Of a stretch of DNA of 17,910 bases, positions 3,459 through 13,270 are shown piece after piece. How positions within the stretch are numbered: position 1 is the stretch's first letter; each line of letters starts with the position of its first letter. A program made the translations under genes and the position numbers. Source of the DNA: Promethearchaeota archaeon (lineage in GTDB: Archaea > Asgardarchaeota > Thorarchaeia > Thorarchaeales > Thorarchaeaceae); the NCBI GenBank assembly GCA_014728035.1, contig WJMJ01000154.1, positions 1 to 17,910 on the forward strand, in the 5' to 3' direction. Under the pieces are notes generated by a model. The model saw nothing but the letters and a program-made list of their open reading frames with translations, made no database searches and was not told the DNA's origin.

Positions 3459-5630
3459 ATGGATATTAAAAAAAGAAATGAGATTCTCGCAAATGATTAT
3501 TTAAGTGGGAAAACATTGCAGTATATATCAGATTCATCTGGATTGTCGAAATCTCAATTGAGTAGAATATTTAGAGAATTAGGTGTTAAACGGAAAAAAT
3601 ATGAGTTAGATAAAGATTATTTTGATAGTAATAAAAATAAGACAGCAAGGCAAATAAGTGAAGAGACTGGTATTTCTATTAAAAGAGTTATGCATTTAAA
3701 AAGAATAGCAAGCGGAGCTAAAATATCAAAGGGTAAGACTGATTTTACAGATTGTGATCCAACAGTTGACCCAGGATTAATCAATAATCATGACTGGTTA
3801 TATGAACAATATGTTACGAACAAACTTGGGGCACCAAGCATAGCTAAAATGTTGGGATCTAAATGTTCCACAATATATAAGATGTTTAAGAGATTTGGTA
3901 TTAGTCGTAGAAATATTAGTCAAGCCATGGAAGTTAAAAAGAAGTGGCCAAGTAAGGATTGGCTGGAGGACCATTATAATAATAGTAAATGGTCAGTAGA
4001 GAGATGCTCTGTAGAATTTGGCACAAACTGGGAAGCTATATATGAAGCTTTAAAACATTATAATATCCCACTTAGAGATGCTAGCACACAACATAGAGGC
4101 AATTTGAACGAATTTTATGGCATGAATCACAATGAAGAGACTAAAATCAAATGCGCCAAAATAGGATCCAAATATGGCGCTGAATATTGGACTACCGGCG
4201 ATGTTGAAGAGAAGAAAAGGCTGACATCTGAAATTAGTAAAAAAGTTTGGTCTGATCCACTTAAAAGACATGATCATTCTGTAAGAATAACCGAGTTGTG
4301 TAAACAAGGCAAATGCAATGCCAAGAACATAACATATATTTCATATAATGGTGATATTATTAAAATGAAATCATCATGGGAATTATTGACAGCACAGATT
4401 TTGGATAAATCTGATGTGGTTGTGGATTGGAAATATGAAGATTTATCTATTAAGTACCATGATGGCGATCATATTCGGAACTTTATAGTTGATTTCTGGG
4501 TGAAGTGGAAGGATGGTCTAGAGTCATATATTGAATGTAAAAACCAGCATTTATTAATCAAAGAAGGAGAACAATTAAAAATAAAGACATTACAAGAATA
4601 TTGCGATAGACACGGGTTTGATTTTATTTTAATTGATAGCAAAGAACAAATAAAGAAAATGTCTATGGGCTATAAAGACATGGTACAATGGATTAATAGT
4701 TCCAGATATAAAGTTAAGCGTAAATATCTACAAGAGCCAGTATTATTTGTGAGAATGATGTTTCACGATATAATAAATCACATCTGTCCTTGGAAACCTC
4801 TACAGTATGAAGATGATGAATTGGCCAAAGACATCGATAGATTGAAGAATGAAAACCTTGATGGATATAATCAGAATGATGGTTTGCATTCCACTGCTCC
4901 AAACAGTGGTGGTATGCCTGGCAGAATCATAATGACTCATTTTAATCCACATTTTTGGGATGTGCCACCCAAAAATTCTAGACCACTTCCACATGCTTTT
5001 GATGACAAAAAACTGATTCTTAAATGCCTTAATATATCATATAAGGAAAAGGAATCACTCAGTGTTGAAAGATTGCTTAGAGAGATAAACTTTCATAGCA
5101 AATTTGGTAGGACGTCCCATTTTGCACCAGGATTTGCCCGTAATATTATAAAATTAATGGATGCATCTGGAAAGAGGATATTTGATCCATGTTGCGGATG
5201 GGGAGGTAGATTACTTGGCTCTTGGTTGGAGGAATGCGAATATTCTGGGTGTGACATTAGTCCTTTAACCTTTAATGGACTATTGAATATATCTAATTTT
5301 GTGGGGCATGATTGTGATATATTCAATGAATCATGTCTTGATCATGATTGGCCAGATTCTGATTTGATATTCACATCACCACCGTTTTATGACATAGAAC
5401 AATATATTGGTGGTAATCAGCCATGGATGAGATGTAAATCTAGAAACGAATGGATAGAGACATTTGTTGAGCCGTTCGTAAACAAAATAAATTCGAATTG
5501 CGTACTATATTTAGACCATAAGACTAAGGATGATTATGAATCAATTAGGAAATTCAACAAGATAATAGAAATTAAAAATAGGAGACACGCAAGGAGAAAG
5601 GTTGATAGTGAATTGTTATGTATATATTGA
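3459..5630 (+). CDS. Multi-domain protein: HTH repeats, PD-(D/E)xK (TnsA-like/homing) endonuclease and amino-DNA methyltransferase
   Basis: N-terminal HTH-like repeats (WLYEQYVTNKLGAPSIAKMLG; WLEDHYNNSKWSVERCSVEFG) and a NUMOD3-like FYGMNHNEETKIK. Nuclease-like MKSSWE...WKYE...FIVDFWV...YIECKN. MTase motif I FDPCCGWGGRLLG and motif IV FTSPPFY. Confidence 0.8.
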   Translation: MDIKKRNEILANDYLSGKTLQYISDSSGLSKSQLSRIFRELGVKRKKYELDKDYFDSNKNKTARQISEETGISIKRVMHLKRIASGAKISKGKTDFTDCDPTVDPGLINNHDWLYEQYVTNKLGAPSIAKMLGSKCSTIYKMFKRFGISRRNISQAMEVKKKWPSKDWLEDHYNNSKWSVERCSVEFGTNWEAIYEALKHYNIPLRDASTQHRGNLNEFYGMNHNEETKIKCAKIGSKYGAEYWTTGDVEEKKRLTSEISKKVWSDPLKRHDHSVRITELCKQGKCNAKNITYISYNGDIIKMKSSWELLTAQILDKSDVVVDWKYEDLSIKYHDGDHIRNFIVDFWVKWKDGLESYIECKNQHLLIKEGEQLKIKTLQEYCDRHGFDFILIDSKEQIKKMSMGYKDMVQWINSSRYKVKRKYLQEPVLFVRMMFHDIINHICPWKPLQYEDDELAKDIDRLKNENLDGYNQNDGLHSTAPNSGGMPGRIIMTHFNPHFWDVPPKNSRPLPHAFDDKKLILKCLNISYKEKESLSVERLLREINFHSKFGRTSHFAPGFARNIIKLMDASGKRIFDPCCGWGGRLLGSWLEECEYSGCDISPLTFNGLLNISNFVGHDCDIFNESCLDHDWPDSDLIFTSPPFYDIEQYIGGNQPWMRCKSRNEWIETFVEPFVNKINSNCVLYLDHKTKDDYESIRKFNKIIEIKNRRHARRKVDSELLCIY

Positions 5631-5697: not shown

Positions 5698-6177
5698 ATG
5701 GACATCATACAAAAAGCGCGGATGAGAGCAAAGAAGGCACATCATGGGCAGACGCGCAAAGGGTCTGCCGCACCCTATTTTACCCATCCAGAAGCTGTAG
5801 CACAGCTTGTACAAGAATCAGGTGGTAGTGATTATCTTATTGCTGCAGCTTATCTTCATGACGTACTAGAAGACACCAACACACCTATACATGATTTCCC
5901 AGATGAAGTGCGGAATGTTGTTGAGAAATTGACCCACAAGGGCGGGTATGCACATGCCAAGATAGACGCCATCAAGAAACTTGAAGGCGATAAAGACGCT
6001 ATTTTGGTAAAACTCGCTGATCGGTTGCATAATCTGAGTGATTCTTCTTTCAAACGAGATAGATATGCTAGCAGAAAATCCGTCCAGCAATCTACAAATA
6101 TTCTGTTAGCCATGGCCGTTGATGCTGGACTGGCTCATACTAAGGTGTTTCGTGATTTAGACAAACTGATGAGGTGA
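5698..6177 (+). CDS. Small HD-domain hydrolase, RelA/SpoT (p)ppGpp hydrolase / Mesh1-like
   Basis: AHHGQTRKGSAAPYFTHPEAVA, AAYLHDVLEDT, VKLADRLHNL. Confidence 0.9.
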   Translation: MDIIQKARMRAKKAHHGQTRKGSAAPYFTHPEAVAQLVQESGGSDYLIAAAYLHDVLEDTNTPIHDFPDEVRNVVEKLTHKGGYAHAKIDAIKKLEGDKDAILVKLADRLHNLSDSSFKRDRYASRKSVQQSTNILLAMAVDAGLAHTKVFRDLDKLMR

Positions 6178-6863: not shown

Positions 6864-6884
6864 CTATACCTAGATGATATATAA
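6864..6884 (+). promoter_or_regulatory. Putative promoter for scaffold/array 1
   Basis: CTATACCTAGATGATATATAA, 18/21 identical to 7161-7181, runs into TATAAT directly before the scaffold. Confidence 0.55.
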
Positions 6885-6948
6885 TTCAGGCCCTCATCCT
6901 CGGGCCTAAGCTCACCCATGATGGTGAGTAATCTCCGGATGGAGACCA
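6885..6948 (+). ncRNA. Structured scaffold (tracrRNA/scoutRNA-like), copy 1
   Basis: 62/64 identical to 9647-9710. Hairpins AGGCCC-[TCATCCTC]-GGGCCT, CTCACC-[CATGAT]-GGTGAG and TCTCC-[GGAT]-GGAGA. Loop 1 is complementary to the repeat 3' end. Confidence 0.75.
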
Positions 6949-6955
6949 CTTTAGT

Positions 6956-7099
6956 ATCGTCTTTGTGCGCGTGTGGAAGGATGATGATGACCGTGGATCG
7001 GTTCCCCCTTCCCGCAATCGTCTTCGTGCGCGTGTGGGAGGATGGCCCCAGCACGTACATAGCACAGGAAGCACTCCAATCGTCTTCGTGGGAGGATGG
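6956..7099 (+). CRISPR. CRISPR mini-array 1 (3 repeats, 2 bounded spacers plus a probable trailing spacer)
   Basis: Repeats at 6956-6984 (ATCGTCTTTGTGCGCGTGTGGAAGGATGA), 7017-7045 (ATCGTCTTCGTGCGCGTGTGGGAGGATGG) and 7079-7099 (8-nt internal deletion). Spacers are 32 and 33 nt. Confidence 0.8.
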
Positions 7100-7160
7100 G
7101 CTGGACCCGACTGCGCGGCCTTCGGCCCCAGTATAGACATACTATCTTTCCTAACGTAAC

Positions 7161-7181
7161 CTATACCAGGATAATATATAA
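7161..7181 (+). promoter_or_regulatory. Putative promoter for the Cas12f-like operon
   Basis: CTATACCAGGATAATATATAA, a near-copy of 6864-6884, followed by an AGGAGG RBS at 7199-7204. Confidence 0.55.
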
Positions 7182-7210
7182 ATCACTTCTCTCACTTTAG
7201 GAGGATCACT

Positions 7211-8602
7211 ATGGCTAAGAAGACAAAAAAGAAGGTTGTTAAGAAAAAGACGGATGACAAAAAAGAGGACAAGCCAAAACGGATTGGTAAAACCCTATCA
7301 TTGAGGGTTGATGTTGATGTTCCATTTTATTGTGAGGCAAATGGCATAGAGGTGCCAGTTGGGAAAACTGAGTATAACGAAATACGCAATGAACTCAGGA
7401 CGATAATTCGGAATGATATCAAGCGGTATAGGTTCGTACTCAGACAAGCTGCCAGTATTCTAGCATTTGCAGCCACAGTGACACAGCACATAGAATTTAA
7501 AGATGATGATATTAGGGTATATGCAACCTCTGAAGAAATGAAAGAAACTCTGCGCACACTATTTGGAAGGGATGGTGCCGCGTGTTTCTATTCGCTTAGA
7601 GAATGGGTGATTGAAAGATTGGGTGGATGGCGTACTGAACATTGGGATCATATGCGCAACGAATTGCAAACCAATTGGTTTGCTAAAGATCCCCAGTTTG
7701 GTGCTAGTCGTGGGTGGCTCATTCTGAATTGTGCACGTATTCCTGCATTGTTCCACAATGCACCGATTAACTTTCTACCTTGTAGCGTGAAAGTTGATGA
7801 TGGCGGTCACCATATTAGTCTTAGCGTACGTCCAAGGGAGCGTTTTGGATTGCGTATTGCATCGACTGATAAGTCTCAATGGTTTTTGTGGAATAGAATT
7901 CTGAATAATGATGGATATCGGATGGGAACGTGCAAACTTTGTATTAACCGTAAACATCAATGGAAGTTTCTGGTTACCTATACTTGTGAGGAAACCAAAT
8001 CTGTTCTGAATCCTAAGCGCACTCTTGAGGTGGCCTTTACTGATGATCCCAAGAAATTCATCCAGTTTGCTATGAGATCTGGCCATAAGACTCTTATTGA
8101 TGACTTGAGAAATAAGCACTTGGATGCCACTGCTGCCATTAGAATCCTGGACAAGTTCAAAGCACAACAGCGTTACCTTGAAGAGGAGCGTGATGCATGT
8201 CGATATGGCAGAGGTGGTTATAATAAAGCATACAAAGCGGTTAACAAACGGAGGGCTAAGTATACAGAGGGAAGAGAAAGAGTATGTGCCAATTGGAATC
8301 ATACCTGGAGTAAGAGAATTATTACTATTGCACAGCAATGGGATTGTGGTAACATTGAAGTATTCAATATGCCGTCTCACAGTGTAAAAAAGAAGAATCT
8401 CGAAAAGCACGGTGCAGCAGCGGCAATTGAAGAATGTGCAATGCAAGAAGAGATTCGATCCAATTTGTTTGGTAGGGAATGGGCTTGGTTTGATTTTGCT
8501 CAGAAGGTGAAATATAAAGCCAGGGATGCAGGATGCAAGGTCAAATTCATCGAGAATGTAGACATAGACCATATTCTAGACATAGGTGCATCTGTATCGT
8601 GA
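7211..8602 (+). CDS. Cas12f/TnpB-like protein, predicted nuclease-dead and C-terminally truncated
   Basis: The C-terminal half follows the Cas12f/TnpB RuvC layout: KWKFLVTYT...KRTLEVAFTDD (RuvC-I position), NWNHTWSKRIITIAQQWDCGNIEVFNM (RuvC-II position), WAWFDFAQKVKYKARDAGCKVKFIE. It stops before the Zn finger and RuvC-III. Flanked by CRISPR arrays. Confidence 0.75.
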   Translation: MAKKTKKKVVKKKTDDKKEDKPKRIGKTLSLRVDVDVPFYCEANGIEVPVGKTEYNEIRNELRTIIRNDIKRYRFVLRQAASILAFAATVTQHIEFKDDDIRVYATSEEMKETLRTLFGRDGAACFYSLREWVIERLGGWRTEHWDHMRNELQTNWFAKDPQFGASRGWLILNCARIPALFHNAPINFLPCSVKVDDGGHHISLSVRPRERFGLRIASTDKSQWFLWNRILNNDGYRMGTCKLCINRKHQWKFLVTYTCEETKSVLNPKRTLEVAFTDDPKKFIQFAMRSGHKTLIDDLRNKHLDATAAIRILDKFKAQQRYLEEERDACRYGRGGYNKAYKAVNKRRAKYTEGRERVCANWNHTWSKRIITIAQQWDCGNIEVFNMPSHSVKKKNLEKHGAAAAIEECAMQEEIRSNLFGREWAWFDFAQKVKYKARDAGCKVKFIENVDIDHILDIGASVS

Positions 8603-8604
8603 TG

Positions 8605-8723
8605 GCGATGTGATGTGAAGCAATACGAGATGTGGTAGAGCGATGGTTCTGTAAGACATAACGTATCGTTGCGTAAATCAACGAATGCAAAGCACATCGG
8701 GTGGTCGTGGGTGGTCCACGGCC
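8605..8723 (+). ncRNA. Putative guide-type ncRNA with 5-nt periodic RYR-NN units and a 3' hairpin
   Basis: Eight consecutive RYR-NN pentamers at 8605-8644. The phase shifts by +1 at 8646 and again at 8687 (41-nt blocks). Hairpin GGTCGTGG-[GTGGT]-CCACGGCC at 8703-8723. Confidence 0.55.
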
Positions 8724-8748
8724 CATTGTGGAAACTGGAGGAAAAACC

Positions 8749-9438
8749 GTGAAGACAATCAGAGTGAAAGCGACGTTTTTGGAGCCTGTGTTGGGCACTG
8801 TGGCTGGAGATCCAGAGATTTATGAACAGTTTATTGCCAGTAAACGGCCTGATGGTGTGGATCCAGAAGAGATTGAGGCAATCCCAACGTTGGAGGAGGA
8901 TTTGGAAAAGGGAGCGACAGTGTTCGCTCGTATAAATGAAACTGGTACACCCATGCTCTGGGATTATCAGATTCGTGGATTCTTCAAAGAGGCATTTAAA
9001 TCCATGATCGATATTACTGGATCTTGTATCGACACAAAGGAGAAGCAGAAGAAATACAGGCTCACCAATTATACGTGCAAAAAGACGGTGGATAATCATA
9101 TTGGTGTCACGCCACGACGAGTTGAACTGCATCTGCCGGAGGGTGGTGAACTTACATTTTGTCAGCGACCGCTTCGGGCTGAAACGATGAGAGGAGAACG
9201 AATCGCTCTCGCTTATAGTGAAGAAGCACCGGCTGGAAGCTGGGTTGAATTTACGATCACATTGATGGACGATAAGCTCGAAGAACCAGTGCTTCAGGCA
9301 TTGATGTATGGGGCACACAAAGGATTCGGACAATGGCGCAATAGCGGTAAGGGGCGATTTGAAGTTGAAATTCTGGATGAAGAAAAAACATCCCCCGATT
9401 GGCTCAACACAAGCAAGATTAAGCGTAAGACAGATTAG
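8749..9438 (+). CDS. Stand-alone RAMP / Cas7-fold RNA-binding protein (229 aa)
   Basis: Likely start is GTG 8749, with GGAGG at 8737-8741. RAMP-like elements: IRVKATFLEPVLG, PMLWDYQIRGFFKEA, thumb QRPLRAETMRGERIALAYSEEAPAGSWVEFTITL, Gly-rich loop YGAHKGFGQWRNSGKGRFEV. Confidence 0.75.
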   Translation: MKTIRVKATFLEPVLGTVAGDPEIYEQFIASKRPDGVDPEEIEAIPTLEEDLEKGATVFARINETGTPMLWDYQIRGFFKEAFKSMIDITGSCIDTKEKQKKYRLTNYTCKKTVDNHIGVTPRRVELHLPEGGELTFCQRPLRAETMRGERIALAYSEEAPAGSWVEFTITLMDDKLEEPVLQALMYGAHKGFGQWRNSGKGRFEVEILDEEKTSPDWLNTSKIKRKTD

Positions 9439-9454
9439 TCCGGAAAGGGCATAG

Positions 9455-9640
9455 ATGCGTTGTGTCAATGAAAATTGTGATCGTGATTCTGATTGTCTGG
9501 GTGCAGTGCTGGTCAACGCGGATGGTGACTTTGCCTGCTGCAAAACTTGTGCGGAAGAATATCGTAAGCAACGAGATCATTTCTTTGCCGTAACAGTGCA
9601 TGATGAAGAACTCACAGCCGCATATTTGCGAGGCGAATAA
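9455..9640 (+). CDS. Small Cys-rich, putative Zn-binding protein (61 aa)
   Basis: CxxxxC...DGDFACCKTC. Fills the gap between the RAMP gene and scaffold copy 2 on the same strand. Confidence 0.65.
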   Translation: MRCVNENCDRDSDCLGAVLVNADGDFACCKTCAEEYRKQRDHFFAVTVHDEELTAAYLRGE

Positions 9641-9646
9641 CGTATT

Positions 9647-9710
9647 TTCAGGCCCTCATCCTCGGGCCTAAGCTCACCCACGACGGTGAGTAATCTCCGG
9701 ATGGAGACCA
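9647..9710 (+). ncRNA. Structured scaffold (tracrRNA/scoutRNA-like), copy 2
   Basis: 62/64 identical to 6885-6948. Both differences (9681, 9684) fall in the loop of hairpin 2. Confidence 0.75.
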
Positions 9711-9725
9711 TACAACGGGTGTAAT

Positions 9726-9991
9726 GTGACGCCCACGTGCGCATGGGAGGATGGGGTGCCACACGGATCCGCACGATTTTGCCGTGCGTGACGCCCACGT
9801 GCGCATGGGAGGATGGTGAAAAGATGCGAGCGGCTGAACATATACGAGCGTGACGCCCACGTGCGCATGGGAGGATGGGAGGATCTCGAAATCCTCGAAA
9901 CTATGTGACGCCCACGTGCGCATGGGAGGATGGCTGTAAAAGGACCAAGAAGGAAATCAGCGCAAGTGACACCCCATGTATGGGAGGATGG
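9726..9991 (+). CRISPR. CRISPR mini-array 2 (5 repeats, 4 bounded spacers plus a probable trailing spacer)
   Basis: GTGACGCCCACGTGCGCATGGGAGGATGG is identical at 9726, 9788, 9850 and 9905, with a degenerate 26-nt copy at 9966-9991. Spacers are 33, 33, 26 and 32 nt. Confidence 0.95.
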
Positions 9992-10075
9992 GTATCGGGA
10001 CCCTTCAGGTGCAGAGATATGAGCTTGATTGTTTCAATATATAATTCTACATCTTTGGTGTAAAAGGAGAATATT

Positions 10076-10768
10076 ATGGTCAACACGGCTGAAAAAATCG
10101 ATAAGGTTGAAGCAGAACCAATTGGTGAAATGTCTGATGACGAATTCCAGCAAGTTCTTATTGAGCTTGATGCGATCATTGAAGATATTGTTGACAAGAT
10201 GCTCAGTATGGCAACATATCTAGGACGCATGAGCAAACCACAGATTAAGGAGGTATGTCAACGATACAAAGGAACTATATCTGCGGATCACATCAAACGA
10301 ATCGCATTATTCGGTCGCGGAATGATCAAGGAATATATGGCTAGACCGGAGAAATACATTTATGCCACAGAACTGCAACGATATAGTGATAAAGCTAGAC
10401 AAGATGTGGCAGATCCGGAACGCGTAGTTGAAGTATTGACCATACATGGGCGCAAATCTGAGGTATCAAATAAGAAATTGTGCGAATTGACCCCAGTGCA
10501 GATGATTAATGTGGTGGACCCAATTTATGGTATTCGCACAGTGAAACAACAGGAGAAAGTATTTGTTAGTAATATAAAGAAAGCCTGTAAGAGACAAAAA
10601 AGAACTCCGTCAGACGAAGAAATCAAGTCATTTCTTTATGCATCTGCAGAGCCATCAGAGGATGGTAAATTTATTGTAATTCGAGGGCATGAGGGCGATT
10701 GTGTGCCTGTCATGAAAATTGAAATACCGGCATCTACGATTAAAGATATATTGAGCAGTATTACATAA
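10076..10768 (+). CDS. Hypothetical protein
   Basis: 230-aa ORF with AAGGAG RBS. No family recognised. Confidence 0.75.
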   Translation: MVNTAEKIDKVEAEPIGEMSDDEFQQVLIELDAIIEDIVDKMLSMATYLGRMSKPQIKEVCQRYKGTISADHIKRIALFGRGMIKEYMARPEKYIYATELQRYSDKARQDVADPERVVEVLTIHGRKSEVSNKKLCELTPVQMINVVDPIYGIRTVKQQEKVFVSNIKKACKRQKRTPSDEEIKSFLYASAEPSEDGKFIVIRGHEGDCVPVMKIEIPASTIKDILSSIT

Positions 10769-12652: not shown

Positions 12653-13270
12653 ATGTTTGACAGCCAATTCTACATGATGGAATCTAGTCAAACTGAAGTG
12701 GAACCCATGTTCCCTATAACGTTTGCTAGATCGGCATTAACTAAAACAGGATATGAATACGACCTACCTTTAATTGGTAGTGGTGAAAATGGATATGCAT
12801 TCGCACGTTATGGCATAATAATAAAAGTCACATCCGATCGTGGTGAATACAAAATAGCCAGGCGACTATTACATCAGAAGATCAAACACATAATTAATAT
12901 TTATCGGGCTGAATATGTAAATATGGGATTAGATGGGATGCCACCGTGGTGGGCTGAATACTGGGGCGATGCAATGCCACACTGGCACATCATGAATAAT
13001 CTATATGTTATAGAAAAGAGTAGAGCCAAAATACCAACCGACAAAACCAAATACAACATAGACAAAATTATAAATATGATAGAGATGGGTATATCACACA
13101 CCGTAATAATTAAGTCATTTGGTGAATTGGGCAGACAAATTATCTCGTTGATTGATGCATTGTCCAAATATGATGTTAGATTATATGATATTCGTGGTGA
13201 TAATATTGGTCTTCATGACAACATGCTTAAGCTGATAGACACTGGTGGGGTACAACCAGTTACCGCTTAG
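12653..13270 (+). CDS. Minimal protein-kinase-like (PKL fold) protein
   Basis: Gly loop IGSGENGYAF, IIKVT lysine, helix-C Glu (GEY), catalytic loop YDIRGDNIG and DFG-like LIDTG. Start moved to ATG 12653 (12675 is an alternative) because the upstream part of the track ORF is antisense to the 11341..12579 gene. Confidence 0.75.
   Translation: MFDSQFYMMESSQTEVEPMFPITFARSALTKTGYEYDLPLIGSGENGYAFARYGIIIKVTSDRGEYKIARRLLHQKIKHIINIYRAEYVNMGLDGMPPWWAEYWGDAMPHWHIMNNLYVIEKSRAKIPTDKTKYNIDKIINMIEMGISHTVIIKSFGELGRQIISLIDALSKYDVRLYDIRGDNIGLHDNMLKLIDTGGVQPVTA

What the first reader, a model, noticed from the sequence alone, without database searches (positions are those of the whole stretch)
6864..10023. Composite phage RNA-guided island: dead Cas12f-like protein and stand-alone Cas7/RAMP between two scaffolded CRISPR mini-arrays
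Seen: all on the + strand, promoter-like motif > 64-nt scaffold > array 1 > same promoter-like motif > Cas12f/TnpB-like gene > pentamer-periodic non-coding tract > RAMP gene > Cys-rich ORF > second scaffold copy > array 2. No cas1/2/3/5/6/8/10 gene is in the window. Established: class 2 type V effectors and class 1 RAMP subunits normally belong to separate systems. Inference: a non-cleaving, multi-guide DNA-binding or silencing system of a large phage, either one hybrid machine or two co-transcribed RNA-guided modules. This architecture matches no CRISPR subtype I know.
Basis: partly seen in the sequence, partly recalled or inferred. Interest (0 to 1): 0.95.

Follow-up and report, generated by a model that had tools for sequence, protein, structure and literature searches.

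The report
Two RNA-guided silencers in one phage
A large T4-like phage carries two separate nuclease-free RNA-guided DNA-binding systems side by side: a dead Cas12f with its own scaffolded mini-CRISPR arrays and a conserved unknown partner protein, and a VIPR cassette (Cas7-like Vipr plus five-base-periodic guide RNA) inserted into that locus. It is not one hybrid machine.

Summary
Two scaffold copies are 97% identical. Both arrays exist. The gene at 7211-8602 has a Cas12f fold, with RuvC-I D replaced by A, RuvC-II E replaced by F, and no Zn finger or RuvC-III. The 5-nt-periodic tract and a Cas7-fold protein (true start GTG 8749) are also there.

The hybrid reading fails. The RAMP gene and the pentamer tract form a VIPR system (Vipr plus vrRNA, 2026 preprints). 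Its family has over 2,000 members. In 80 of 80 IMG/VR loci the strongest period-5 tract abuts the gene, and none has a dCas12f. Eight other dCas12f loci have no Vipr.

The dCas12f system is real, and its anatomy is, as far as I found, undescribed:
- The family comprises about 190 clusters.
- It has a three-hairpin scaffold whose first loop covaries with the repeat 3' end.
- A 205-230-aa partner gene is conserved. In the window it lies at 10076-10768, outside the finding.
- Four more promoter-scaffold-array units lie on other contigs of the same bin.

The roughly 1-kb VIPR cassette sits where relatives have a scaffold directly after the dcas12f stop. No guide target was found.

This scan had already found VIPR loci on other DNA (at least 7 genomes). 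It had not found the dCas12f system elsewhere.

The parts
6877..6885 (+). Promoter-like ATATATAAT directly 5' of scaffold 1
   Evidence: The same motif precedes three of the four scaffold copies on other contigs of the bin.
6885..6948 (+). Scaffold copy 1: tracr-like RNA with three hairpins. The H1 loop CATCCTC is complementary to the repeat 3' end GAGGATG.
6954..7132 (+). Mini-array 1: two 31-nt repeats, one truncated repeat and three guides
7174..7182 (+). Promoter-like ATATATAAA upstream of dcas12f
7211..8602 (+). dcas12f: a 463-aa nuclease-dead Cas12f-like protein
8591..8735 (+). vrRNA-like tract. About 20 pentamer units of type xGY-NN run in 41-nt blocks to about 8700, followed by a 3' hairpin at 8703-8735. 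The tract starts inside the last dcas12f codons.
   Evidence: The motif class is described in the preprint read.
8749..9438 (+). vipr: a 229-aa stand-alone Cas7-fold RAMP with a GTG start preceded by GGAGGA
9455..9640 (+). Small Cys-rich (zinc-ribbon-like) ORF of 61 aa with an unassigned role
   Evidence: No homolog was found in about 90 related loci.
9647..9710 (+). Scaffold copy 2, with no promoter motif of its own
9726..10024 (+). Mini-array 2: four 29-nt repeats, one degenerate repeat and five guides
10037..10045 (+). Promoter-like ATATATAAT upstream of the partner gene
10076..10768 (+). Conserved dCas12f-associated partner gene (230 aa, no known family). It lies outside the finding's coordinates.
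   Evidence: Homologs lie just downstream of dcas12f in L006, L089/L090 and L092/L093, with E values from 1e-19 to 1e-37. No Pfam or PDB hit was found.

Best explanation
The island holds two independent, nuclease-free RNA-guided DNA-binding systems of one large T4-like phage.

System A is a phage dCas12f system.
- Promoter-scaffold-array units are transcribed.
- The 64-nt scaffold acts like a tracrRNA. Its first hairpin loop pairs with the last 5-8 nt of each repeat, next to the guide.
- The dead Cas12f then binds matching DNA without cutting it.
- A conserved 205-230-aa partner protein belongs to the system.
- At least six guide units, with about 21 guides, are scattered over the phage genome.

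System B is a VIPR cassette made of a vrRNA tract, vipr and a small Cys-rich ORF. It lies between the dcas12f stop codon and the downstream scaffold. Vipr would polymerise on the xGY-NN repeats and read DNA through the NN bases, as shown for phage SUSP1.

Both systems most likely silence competing mobile elements or host genes.

Shown here: folds, loss of catalytic residues, RNA covariation, gene linkage and lack of linkage. Inferred: RNA processing, DNA binding, silencing and the targets.
For: Cas12f identity and inactivation:
- Foldseek top hits are AsCas12f (E 7e-19) and dCas12f 9n9c.
- The family profile matches OsCas12f at E 4.5e-23.
- RuvC-I D aligns to A and RuvC-II E aligns to F. Neither column is conserved in 35 relatives, and the protein ends before the Zn finger and RuvC-III.

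Guide RNA:
- The same three-hairpin scaffold is found in 8 independent loci.
- Ten H1/H3 pairs all show compensatory changes.
- Cognate loop-repeat complementarity averages 6.1 nt, against 3.3 nt for non-cognate pairs.

Partner gene:
- It is present in all 4 independent loci that have enough downstream sequence.

Dispersed units:
- Scaffolds 98% identical lie at C70:19353, C70:19910, C70:57653 and C74:9644.
- C70 carries phage-type genes.

VIPR:
- Vipr has a Cas7/Csm3 fold.
- More than 2,100 homologs exist, none with a Pfam family.
- In 80 of 80 IMG/VR loci the top period-5 tract abuts the gene.
- The window tract is the top period-5 window in its contig.
- The G-loop motif is shared with SUSP1 Vipr.
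- The system is described in the preprints read.

Independence of the two systems:
- 0 of 80 Vipr loci have a dCas12f, and 0 of 8 dCas12f loci have a Vipr or a period-5 tract.
- In relatives the scaffold follows the dcas12f stop within about 5-80 nt. Here 1 kb of VIPR lies in between.
Against: - No target was found for any of about 21 guides or for the vrRNA, so silencing and the choice of targets are inferred.
- The window's vrRNA tract is short (about 110 nt, against 450-650 nt in relatives) and degenerate. About 20 windows in the bin score as high.
- Scaffold 2 has no promoter of its own. It is probably co-transcribed with dcas12f and vipr, which leaves room for functional coupling.
- Sequence similarity to the characterised SUSP1 Vipr is confined to 32 residues.
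- That C70 and C74 belong to the same phage rests on shared scaffold and promoter sequence and on gene content, not on an assembly.
Confidence: 0.75

Rival explanations
1. One hybrid machine. dCas12f and the Cas7-like protein assemble on RNAs from the locus and act together.
For: - The genes are adjacent on one strand.
- No promoter motif lies between dcas12f and array 2.
- The pentamer tract overlaps the end of dcas12f.
Against: - The two genes co-occur in none of 80 Vipr loci and none of 8 other dCas12f loci.
- Each protein has its own conserved RNA partner elsewhere.
- The published VIPR papers do not mention Cas12 or TnpB.
Confidence: 0.06
2. dCas12f with its conserved partner acts as an RNA-guided recruiter rather than a simple roadblock, for example controlling transcription at target sites. 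This would resemble dCas12f with sigma-E.
For: - The partner gene is conserved in 4 of 4 informative loci.
- dCas12f-sigma-E provides a precedent.
- There is a sub-threshold Spt5-NGN hit in the partner (E 0.029).
Against: - The NGN hit is below the Pfam cut-off and seen in only 1 of 4 homologs.
- No sigma factor or other known domain is present.
Confidence: 0.15
3. The scaffold-array units are RNA decoys (anti-CRISPR-like) that jam a host CRISPR system. The dCas12f would be incidental.
For: - Phage-borne solitary repeats that inhibit CRISPR are known (PMC10651486, listed).
- The bin holds a cas1 gene on C104.
- The 29-nt repeats with a 62-nt period resemble host-type arrays.
Against: - Scaffold, repeat end and dCas12f co-vary across 8 loci.
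- No matching repeats occur outside the scaffold-bearing contigs C70, C74 and C131 of the bin.
Confidence: 0.04
4. The VIPR cassette is a decaying remnant that no longer works. Only the dCas12f system would be active.
For: - The pentamer tract is about five times shorter than in relatives and degenerate: R-Y is kept in about 15 of 20 units.
- No target scored above shuffled controls.
Against: - The Vipr ORF is intact, has a good ribosome-binding site and keeps all 27 invariant family residues.
- Single-vrRNA VIPR systems are reported.
Confidence: 0.12

Closest known systems
VIPR systems (Vipr plus vrRNA, type II of Escherichia phage SUSP1); bioRxiv 10.64898/2026.04.26.720920 and 10.64898/2026.04.26.720927
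   Same: - A lone Cas7-fold RAMP of about 200 aa carried by a phage.
- An adjoining 5-nt-periodic non-coding tract ending in a 3' hairpin.
- No other cas genes of its own.
- A G-loop motif G.GxWR..GRF.
   Different: - The periodic unit is xGY-NN / GY-NNN with 41-nt blocks, not GGY-NN.
- There is only one short tract.
- No recognisable vap gene was found.
- Protein similarity to SUSP1 Vipr is limited to 32 residues.
- The cassette sits inside a dCas12f locus.
CRISPR-array-associated dCas12f cluster, mentioned in Hoffmann et al., Nature 2026 (PMC13472631, Extended Data Fig. 1a,b)
   Same: - A C-terminally truncated, RuvC-inactive Cas12f next to CRISPR arrays.
- A structured RNA upstream of the arrays.
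- A proposed repressor role.
   Different: - The published examples are bacterial MAGs, such as Chitinophagaceae.
- Here the setting is phage-like, with several dispersed promoter-scaffold-array units and a conserved 205-230-aa partner.
- Whether it is the same clade could not be tested.
dCas12f-sigma-E RNA-guided transcription (Flagellimonas taeanensis; PDB 9n9c)
   Same: - The dead Cas12f fold, matched at Foldseek E 1e-16 and profile E 1e-12.
- RNA-guided DNA binding without cleavage.
- A dedicated protein partner.
   Different: - There is no rpoE or HTH neighbour.
- Guides come from arrays plus a separate scaffold, not from a single chimeric gRNA.
- By profile score the family is closer to active Os/AsCas12f.
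Cas12f (type V-F) with tracrRNA, and TnpB omega-RNA
   Same: - The overall fold.
- The guide lies 3' of the repeat.
- The scaffold pairs with the guide-proximal end of the repeat.
   Different: - The catalytic D and E are replaced.
- The Zn finger and RuvC-III are missing.
- The scaffold is only 64 nt and is encoded 5' of the array on the same strand.
Cas12m (type V-M) and TldR
   Same: Compact Cas12/TnpB relatives that protect or regulate by binding DNA and blocking transcription.
   Different: - Cas12m keeps a variant RuvC and has no tracrRNA.
- TldR uses a single omega-RNA-like guide and is tied to fliC or oppF loci.
Cas12r-CRISPR of Thermus Lalka phages (bioRxiv 10.64898/2026.04.20.719267)
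   Same: A phage-encoded type V system with arrays, proposed to act in conflicts between mobile elements.
   Different: Cas12r interferes with plasmids and phages as an active system. It is a different protein family.

Membership tests
Cas12f / type V-F effector | Cas12f/TnpB fold (WED, REC, RuvC core) | tested here: met
   - The AF2 model has pLDDT 86.6.
- Foldseek gives AsCas12f at E 7e-19.
- The profile matches OsCas12f at E 4.5e-23.
- PADLOC gives Cas12f at 9e-19.
Cas12f / type V-F effector | RuvC catalytic triad D-E-D | tested here: not met
   RuvC-I D aligns to A and RuvC-II E aligns to F. The RuvC-III region is absent, and the two columns are not conserved in 35 relatives.
Cas12f / type V-F effector | C-terminal zinc finger (TNB domain) | tested here: not met
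   The protein ends about 20 residues after the last shared strand. There is no CxxC pair.
Cas12f / type V-F effector | Adjacent CRISPR array and a tracrRNA with an anti-repeat | tested here: met
   Two arrays are each preceded by a scaffold. Loop-repeat complementarity covaries in 8 loci.
Cas12f / type V-F effector | Adaptation genes (cas1, cas2, cas4) in the locus | tested here: not met
   None was found in the window ORFs scanned. The only cas1 in the bin is on the unrelated contig C104.
dCas12f-sigma-E system | rpoE (ECF sigma with CTD) or an HTH gene next to dcas12f | tested here: not met
   No sigma or HTH family was found in the neighbours.
dCas12f-sigma-E system | Single chimeric gRNA instead of an array | tested here: not met
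   Arrays carry 3 and 5 guides.
VIPR | Stand-alone single-RRM RAMP (Cas7-like) with a G-loop | tested here: met
   - Foldseek matches type VII Cas7 and Csm3 with probability 1.0 and TM 0.53-0.62.
- The G-loop is shared with SUSP1 Vipr.
- Atlas relatives are 88-100% viral.
VIPR | Adjacent tandem pentamer tract (GGY-NN or a published variant such as YNNNG) | tested here: met
   The window tract has period-5 identity 0.40-0.41 and is the top window of the contig. In 80 of 80 homolog loci the top tract abuts the gene. The units read xGY-NN.
VIPR | Accessory vap gene | tested here: inconclusive
   The Cys-rich ORF 9455-9640 follows vipr but has no homolog in about 90 loci. Published vaps are diverse.
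VIPR | Detectable homology to a characterised Vipr | tested here: inconclusive
   hhalign against SUSP1 Vipr gives E 7e-4 and probability 26% over 32 residues only.
VIPR | Vipr-vrRNA filament and 1-nt-skip DNA recognition | not testable with these tools
   This needs RIP-seq and binding assays. An in-silico 1-nt-skip search of the bin gave nothing above shuffled controls.
Class 1 CRISPR effector (type III or VII Cas7) | Partner subunits (Cas5, Cas10, Cas8, Cas11 or Cas14) in the locus | tested here: not met
   None was found in the window. The one family locus whose neighbours' Pfam hits were listed (L001) shows no Cas domain.

The most novel reading that the evidence does not exclude
The phage dCas12f family would be an undescribed type V variant. 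Its features are a 64-nt scaffold encoded 5' of each mini-array, many dispersed self-promoted guide units, and an obligate 205-230-aa partner. Its partner would turn DNA binding into something more than a roadblock, such as control of RNA polymerase on rival elements. The phage would deliberately couple it on one transcript with a VIPR cassette to run two orthogonal RNA-guided silencing codes at once.
Probability: 0.2. Interest if true: 0.8.

Novelty: new variant of a known kind. Interest (0 to 1): 0.6.

Why it matters
Phages are now known to fight rival mobile elements with RNA-guided silencers. This contig shows two unrelated kinds, a dead type V effector and a VIPR, packed into one 4-kb stretch of one phage.

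The dCas12f side adds three testable items:
- A very small scaffold with a clear covarying loop-repeat contact.
- Guide units scattered over the genome, most with their own promoter.
- A conserved partner protein of no known family, which may define what the dead nuclease does once bound.

A 463-aa DNA binder with a 64-nt scaffold could also be useful as a compact tool. The VIPR part is a further example of a recently described system, not a new one.

Tried and rejected
Guide targets:
- Eight window guides, then about 21 guides from six units, were searched against the 4.3-Mb bin. Only chance-level matches of 17 nt or less appeared.
- Four of the six array regions were searched against 50,697 phage records at E up to 10. 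Nothing credible was found.
- Two 22-nt guide cores searched in IMG/VR gave 0 hits.
- The vrRNA NN code under the 1-nt-skip rule, searched against the bin, scored no better than shuffled order.

Relatives:
- The dCas12f family was not found in IMG/VR.
- It was not found in GenBank phages.
- None of 400 genomes of the phylum has it. The two hits there are partial matches to ordinary TnpB.
- The metagenome scan gave one locus.
- The word-based protein search found only the protein itself.
- An 18-nt scaffold core gave 1 IMG/VR hit and 93 GTDB hits. All are chance, with no extended scaffold and no protein homolog.

Other attempts:
- Rfam gave no family at E up to 1, and there are no tRNAs.
- The partner protein has no Pfam, PDB or Atlas assignment.
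- Complex prediction of dCas12f with the partner returned no verdict. It is not used as evidence either way.
- The look-up of sequencing runs listed no run, so no RNA holder was listed.
- I first suspected the 204-212-aa genes downstream of dCas12f relatives to be distant Viprs. They are not. They are homologs of window ORF 10076-10768.


Full report
**Setting.** The window is a whole 17.9-kb contig (C131) of a 4.3-Mb, 173-contig bin with 98% completeness and 8.5% contamination. It carries a T4-type major capsid gene (Gp23, E 2e-76), a homing-endonuclease-like ORF, an HD phosphohydrolase, a MazG and a glycosyltransferase. It is therefore phage DNA. The island at 6.9-10.8 kb is richer in G+C (0.44-0.50) than its flanks (0.34-0.40).

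**Observation.**
- The 64-nt scaffold occurs twice at 97% identity. Each copy folds into three hairpins.
- Array 1 has two 31-nt repeats and one truncated repeat.
- Array 2 has four identical 29-nt repeats and one degenerate repeat, with a 62-nt period.
- The motif ATATATAA occurs five times, always on the + strand. Four sites lie just upstream of the HD gene, scaffold 1, the Cas12f-like gene and ORF 10076.
- Scaffold 2 has no such motif.

**The Cas12f-like protein.**
- Direct sequence hits are weak: NCBIfam TnpB at E 2e-6 and PDB Cas12f at E 1.5e-6.
- PADLOC gives Cas12f and Cas12u3 at about 1e-19.
- An exhaustive HMMER search found 189 clusters of relatives of about 400 aa.
- An AF2 model built on 35 of them (pLDDT 86.6) matches AsCas12f at E 7e-19 and the published dCas12f 9n9c at E 1e-16.
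- In the profile alignment to As/OsCas12f, the RuvC-I aspartate falls on A and the RuvC-II glutamate on F. Neither column is conserved in the family. All members stop shortly after the strand that precedes the Zn finger and RuvC-III.
- The whole family is therefore nuclease-dead.

**Its RNA.**
- I fetched eight other loci of the family: L005, L006, L007, L088, L089/L090, L091 and L092/L093.
- All have the same three-hairpin scaffold with different sequence.
- An alignment of 15 scaffolds gives 10 H1/H3 pairs, and every pair has compensatory changes.
- In each locus the H1 loop is complementary to the last bases of the cognate repeat, next to the guide. Examples are CATCCTC with GAGGATG here, CTCTAG with CTAGAG in L092, CTCTCA with TGAGAG in L005 and CTGTAG with CTACAG in L088.
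- Cognate Watson-Crick runs average 6.1 nt, against 3.3 nt for non-cognate pairs.
- From my own knowledge, this resembles the guide-proximal repeat:anti-repeat contact (pseudoknot) of Cas12f and TnpB guide RNAs. I did not test that equivalence.
- L092 has five scaffold copies spread around the genes.
- The bin itself has four more scaffold copies, 98% identical, on contigs C70 and C74. Each is followed by a mini-array, and three are preceded by GATATATAAT.
- C70 encodes NrdD, glycosyltransferases and a methyltransferase, which fits the same large phage.
- In total there are about 21 different guides.

**A conserved partner.** Genes of 204-212 aa just downstream of dcas12f in L006, L089/L090 and L092/L093 are homologs of window ORF 10076-10768, with E values from 1e-19 to 1e-37. 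That is every independent locus with enough downstream sequence. The protein has no Pfam, PDB or Atlas assignment.

**The RAMP gene and the pentamer tract.**
- The 229-aa protein (GTG 8749) has more than 2,100 relatives of about 200 aa, none with a Pfam family.
- Its AF2 model (pLDDT 86.5) matches type VII Cas7 and Csm3.
- In the first homolog loci I noticed a 450-650-nt tract with strong 5-nt periodicity next to the gene.
- In 80 of 80 IMG/VR loci the strongest period-5 tract within 6 kb either side abuts the gene.
- The notebook of this scan then pointed to VIPR. I read the preprints.
- According to those preprints, a VIPR system is a lone Cas7-like Vipr plus vrRNAs made of GGY-NN repeats, or variants such as YNNNG. 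The protein forms a filament on the RNA and reads double-stranded DNA through the NN bases with a 1-nt skip. These systems silence rival phages and satellites.
- The window tract reads xGY-NN in 41-nt blocks and ends in a hairpin.
- SUSP1 Vipr shares the G-loop motif with this protein but little else, so this is a different VIPR type.

**Are the two linked?**
- None of the 80 Vipr loci has a dCas12f homolog.
- None of the eight other dCas12f loci has a Vipr by profile search or a period-5 tract.
- In relatives the scaffold starts within about 5-80 nt of the dcas12f stop. Here the stop is followed by the vrRNA tract, vipr and the Cys-rich ORF, and only then by scaffold 2.
- The simplest reading is that a roughly 1-kb VIPR cassette was inserted into a dCas12f locus.
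- The VIPR papers do not mention Cas12 or TnpB.

**Function.**
- Both systems lack a nuclease. Their closest characterised relatives repress transcription by binding: VIPR, the array-linked dCas12f cluster (proposed), TldR and Cas12m.
- I therefore expect silencing of rival elements or host genes.
- This is inference. No target was found in the bin, in GenBank phages or in IMG/VR.

**Novelty.**
- The VIPR part is a new member of a known kind. This scan has already met VIPR loci in at least seven other genomes.
- Array-linked dCas12f proteins were mentioned in PMC13472631 for bacterial MAGs.
- I did not find the following described in the papers I searched: the phage setting, the 5' scaffold with its covarying loop, the dispersed guide units and the conserved partner.
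- Overall this is a new variant of a known kind.

Noticed in passing
G000 contigs C70:19343-19560, C70:19895-20200, C70:57630-58070 and C74:9340-9660 (- strand); loci L099, L100, L101: There are four more scaffold-plus-mini-array units, with scaffolds 98% identical to the window's. Three are preceded by GATATATAAT. Together with the window this makes about 21 distinct guides served by a single dcas12f gene.
   Followed up: partly
L002-L004: 8001-8624, 8625-9277, 9278-10084 (Sedimentisphaerales MAG): A bacterial Vipr homolog is followed by a 650-nt pentamer tract and then a TIR_2-domain gene. L002 and L003 also have a beta-CASP nuclease gene 1 kb further on. This may be a host-side VIPR with an effector.
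   Followed up: no
L005:609-800 and L007:3-167; window 9455-9640: Small CxxC...CxxC zinc-ribbon ORFs sit directly upstream of dcas12f in two relatives, and the window has a Cys-rich ORF just before scaffold 2. They are not detectably homologous to one another. A small zinc protein may recur with a dCas12f that has lost its own zinc finger.
   Followed up: partly
G000 contig C26, about 12940-13130 (- strand): This is the strongest period-5 tract of the whole bin (0.46), with GY-NNN-like units. It overlaps or abuts ORFs and no Vipr gene is nearby. It could be a solo vrRNA or a coding oddity.
   Followed up: partly
L092: 4348, 5796, 6060, 6869, 7334: Five scaffold copies are scattered around dcas12f and the partner gene. 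Each is followed by short repeat units ending in GCTAGAGG, with spacers of 16-40 nt. This layout is far less regular than a normal CRISPR array.
   Followed up: partly
window 3459-5630: A low-GC (0.34) 723-aa ORF lies right after the capsid gene. It has HNH-endonuclease, HTH and TnsA-like hits, so it looks like a homing-type endonuclease.
   Followed up: no
L091: 772-1869 and 2207-2734: A phage-like contig with a dCas12f relative also carries a second, shorter TnpB-like gene (Cas12f1-like_TNB). It also has an HD gene 34% identical to the window's HD gene at 5698-6177.
   Followed up: no
window 5686, 6877, 7174, 10037 (and 3873): The motif ATATATAA occurs only on the + strand. Four of the five sites lie just upstream of gene or RNA starts, so it is a likely phage promoter element.
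   Followed up: partly
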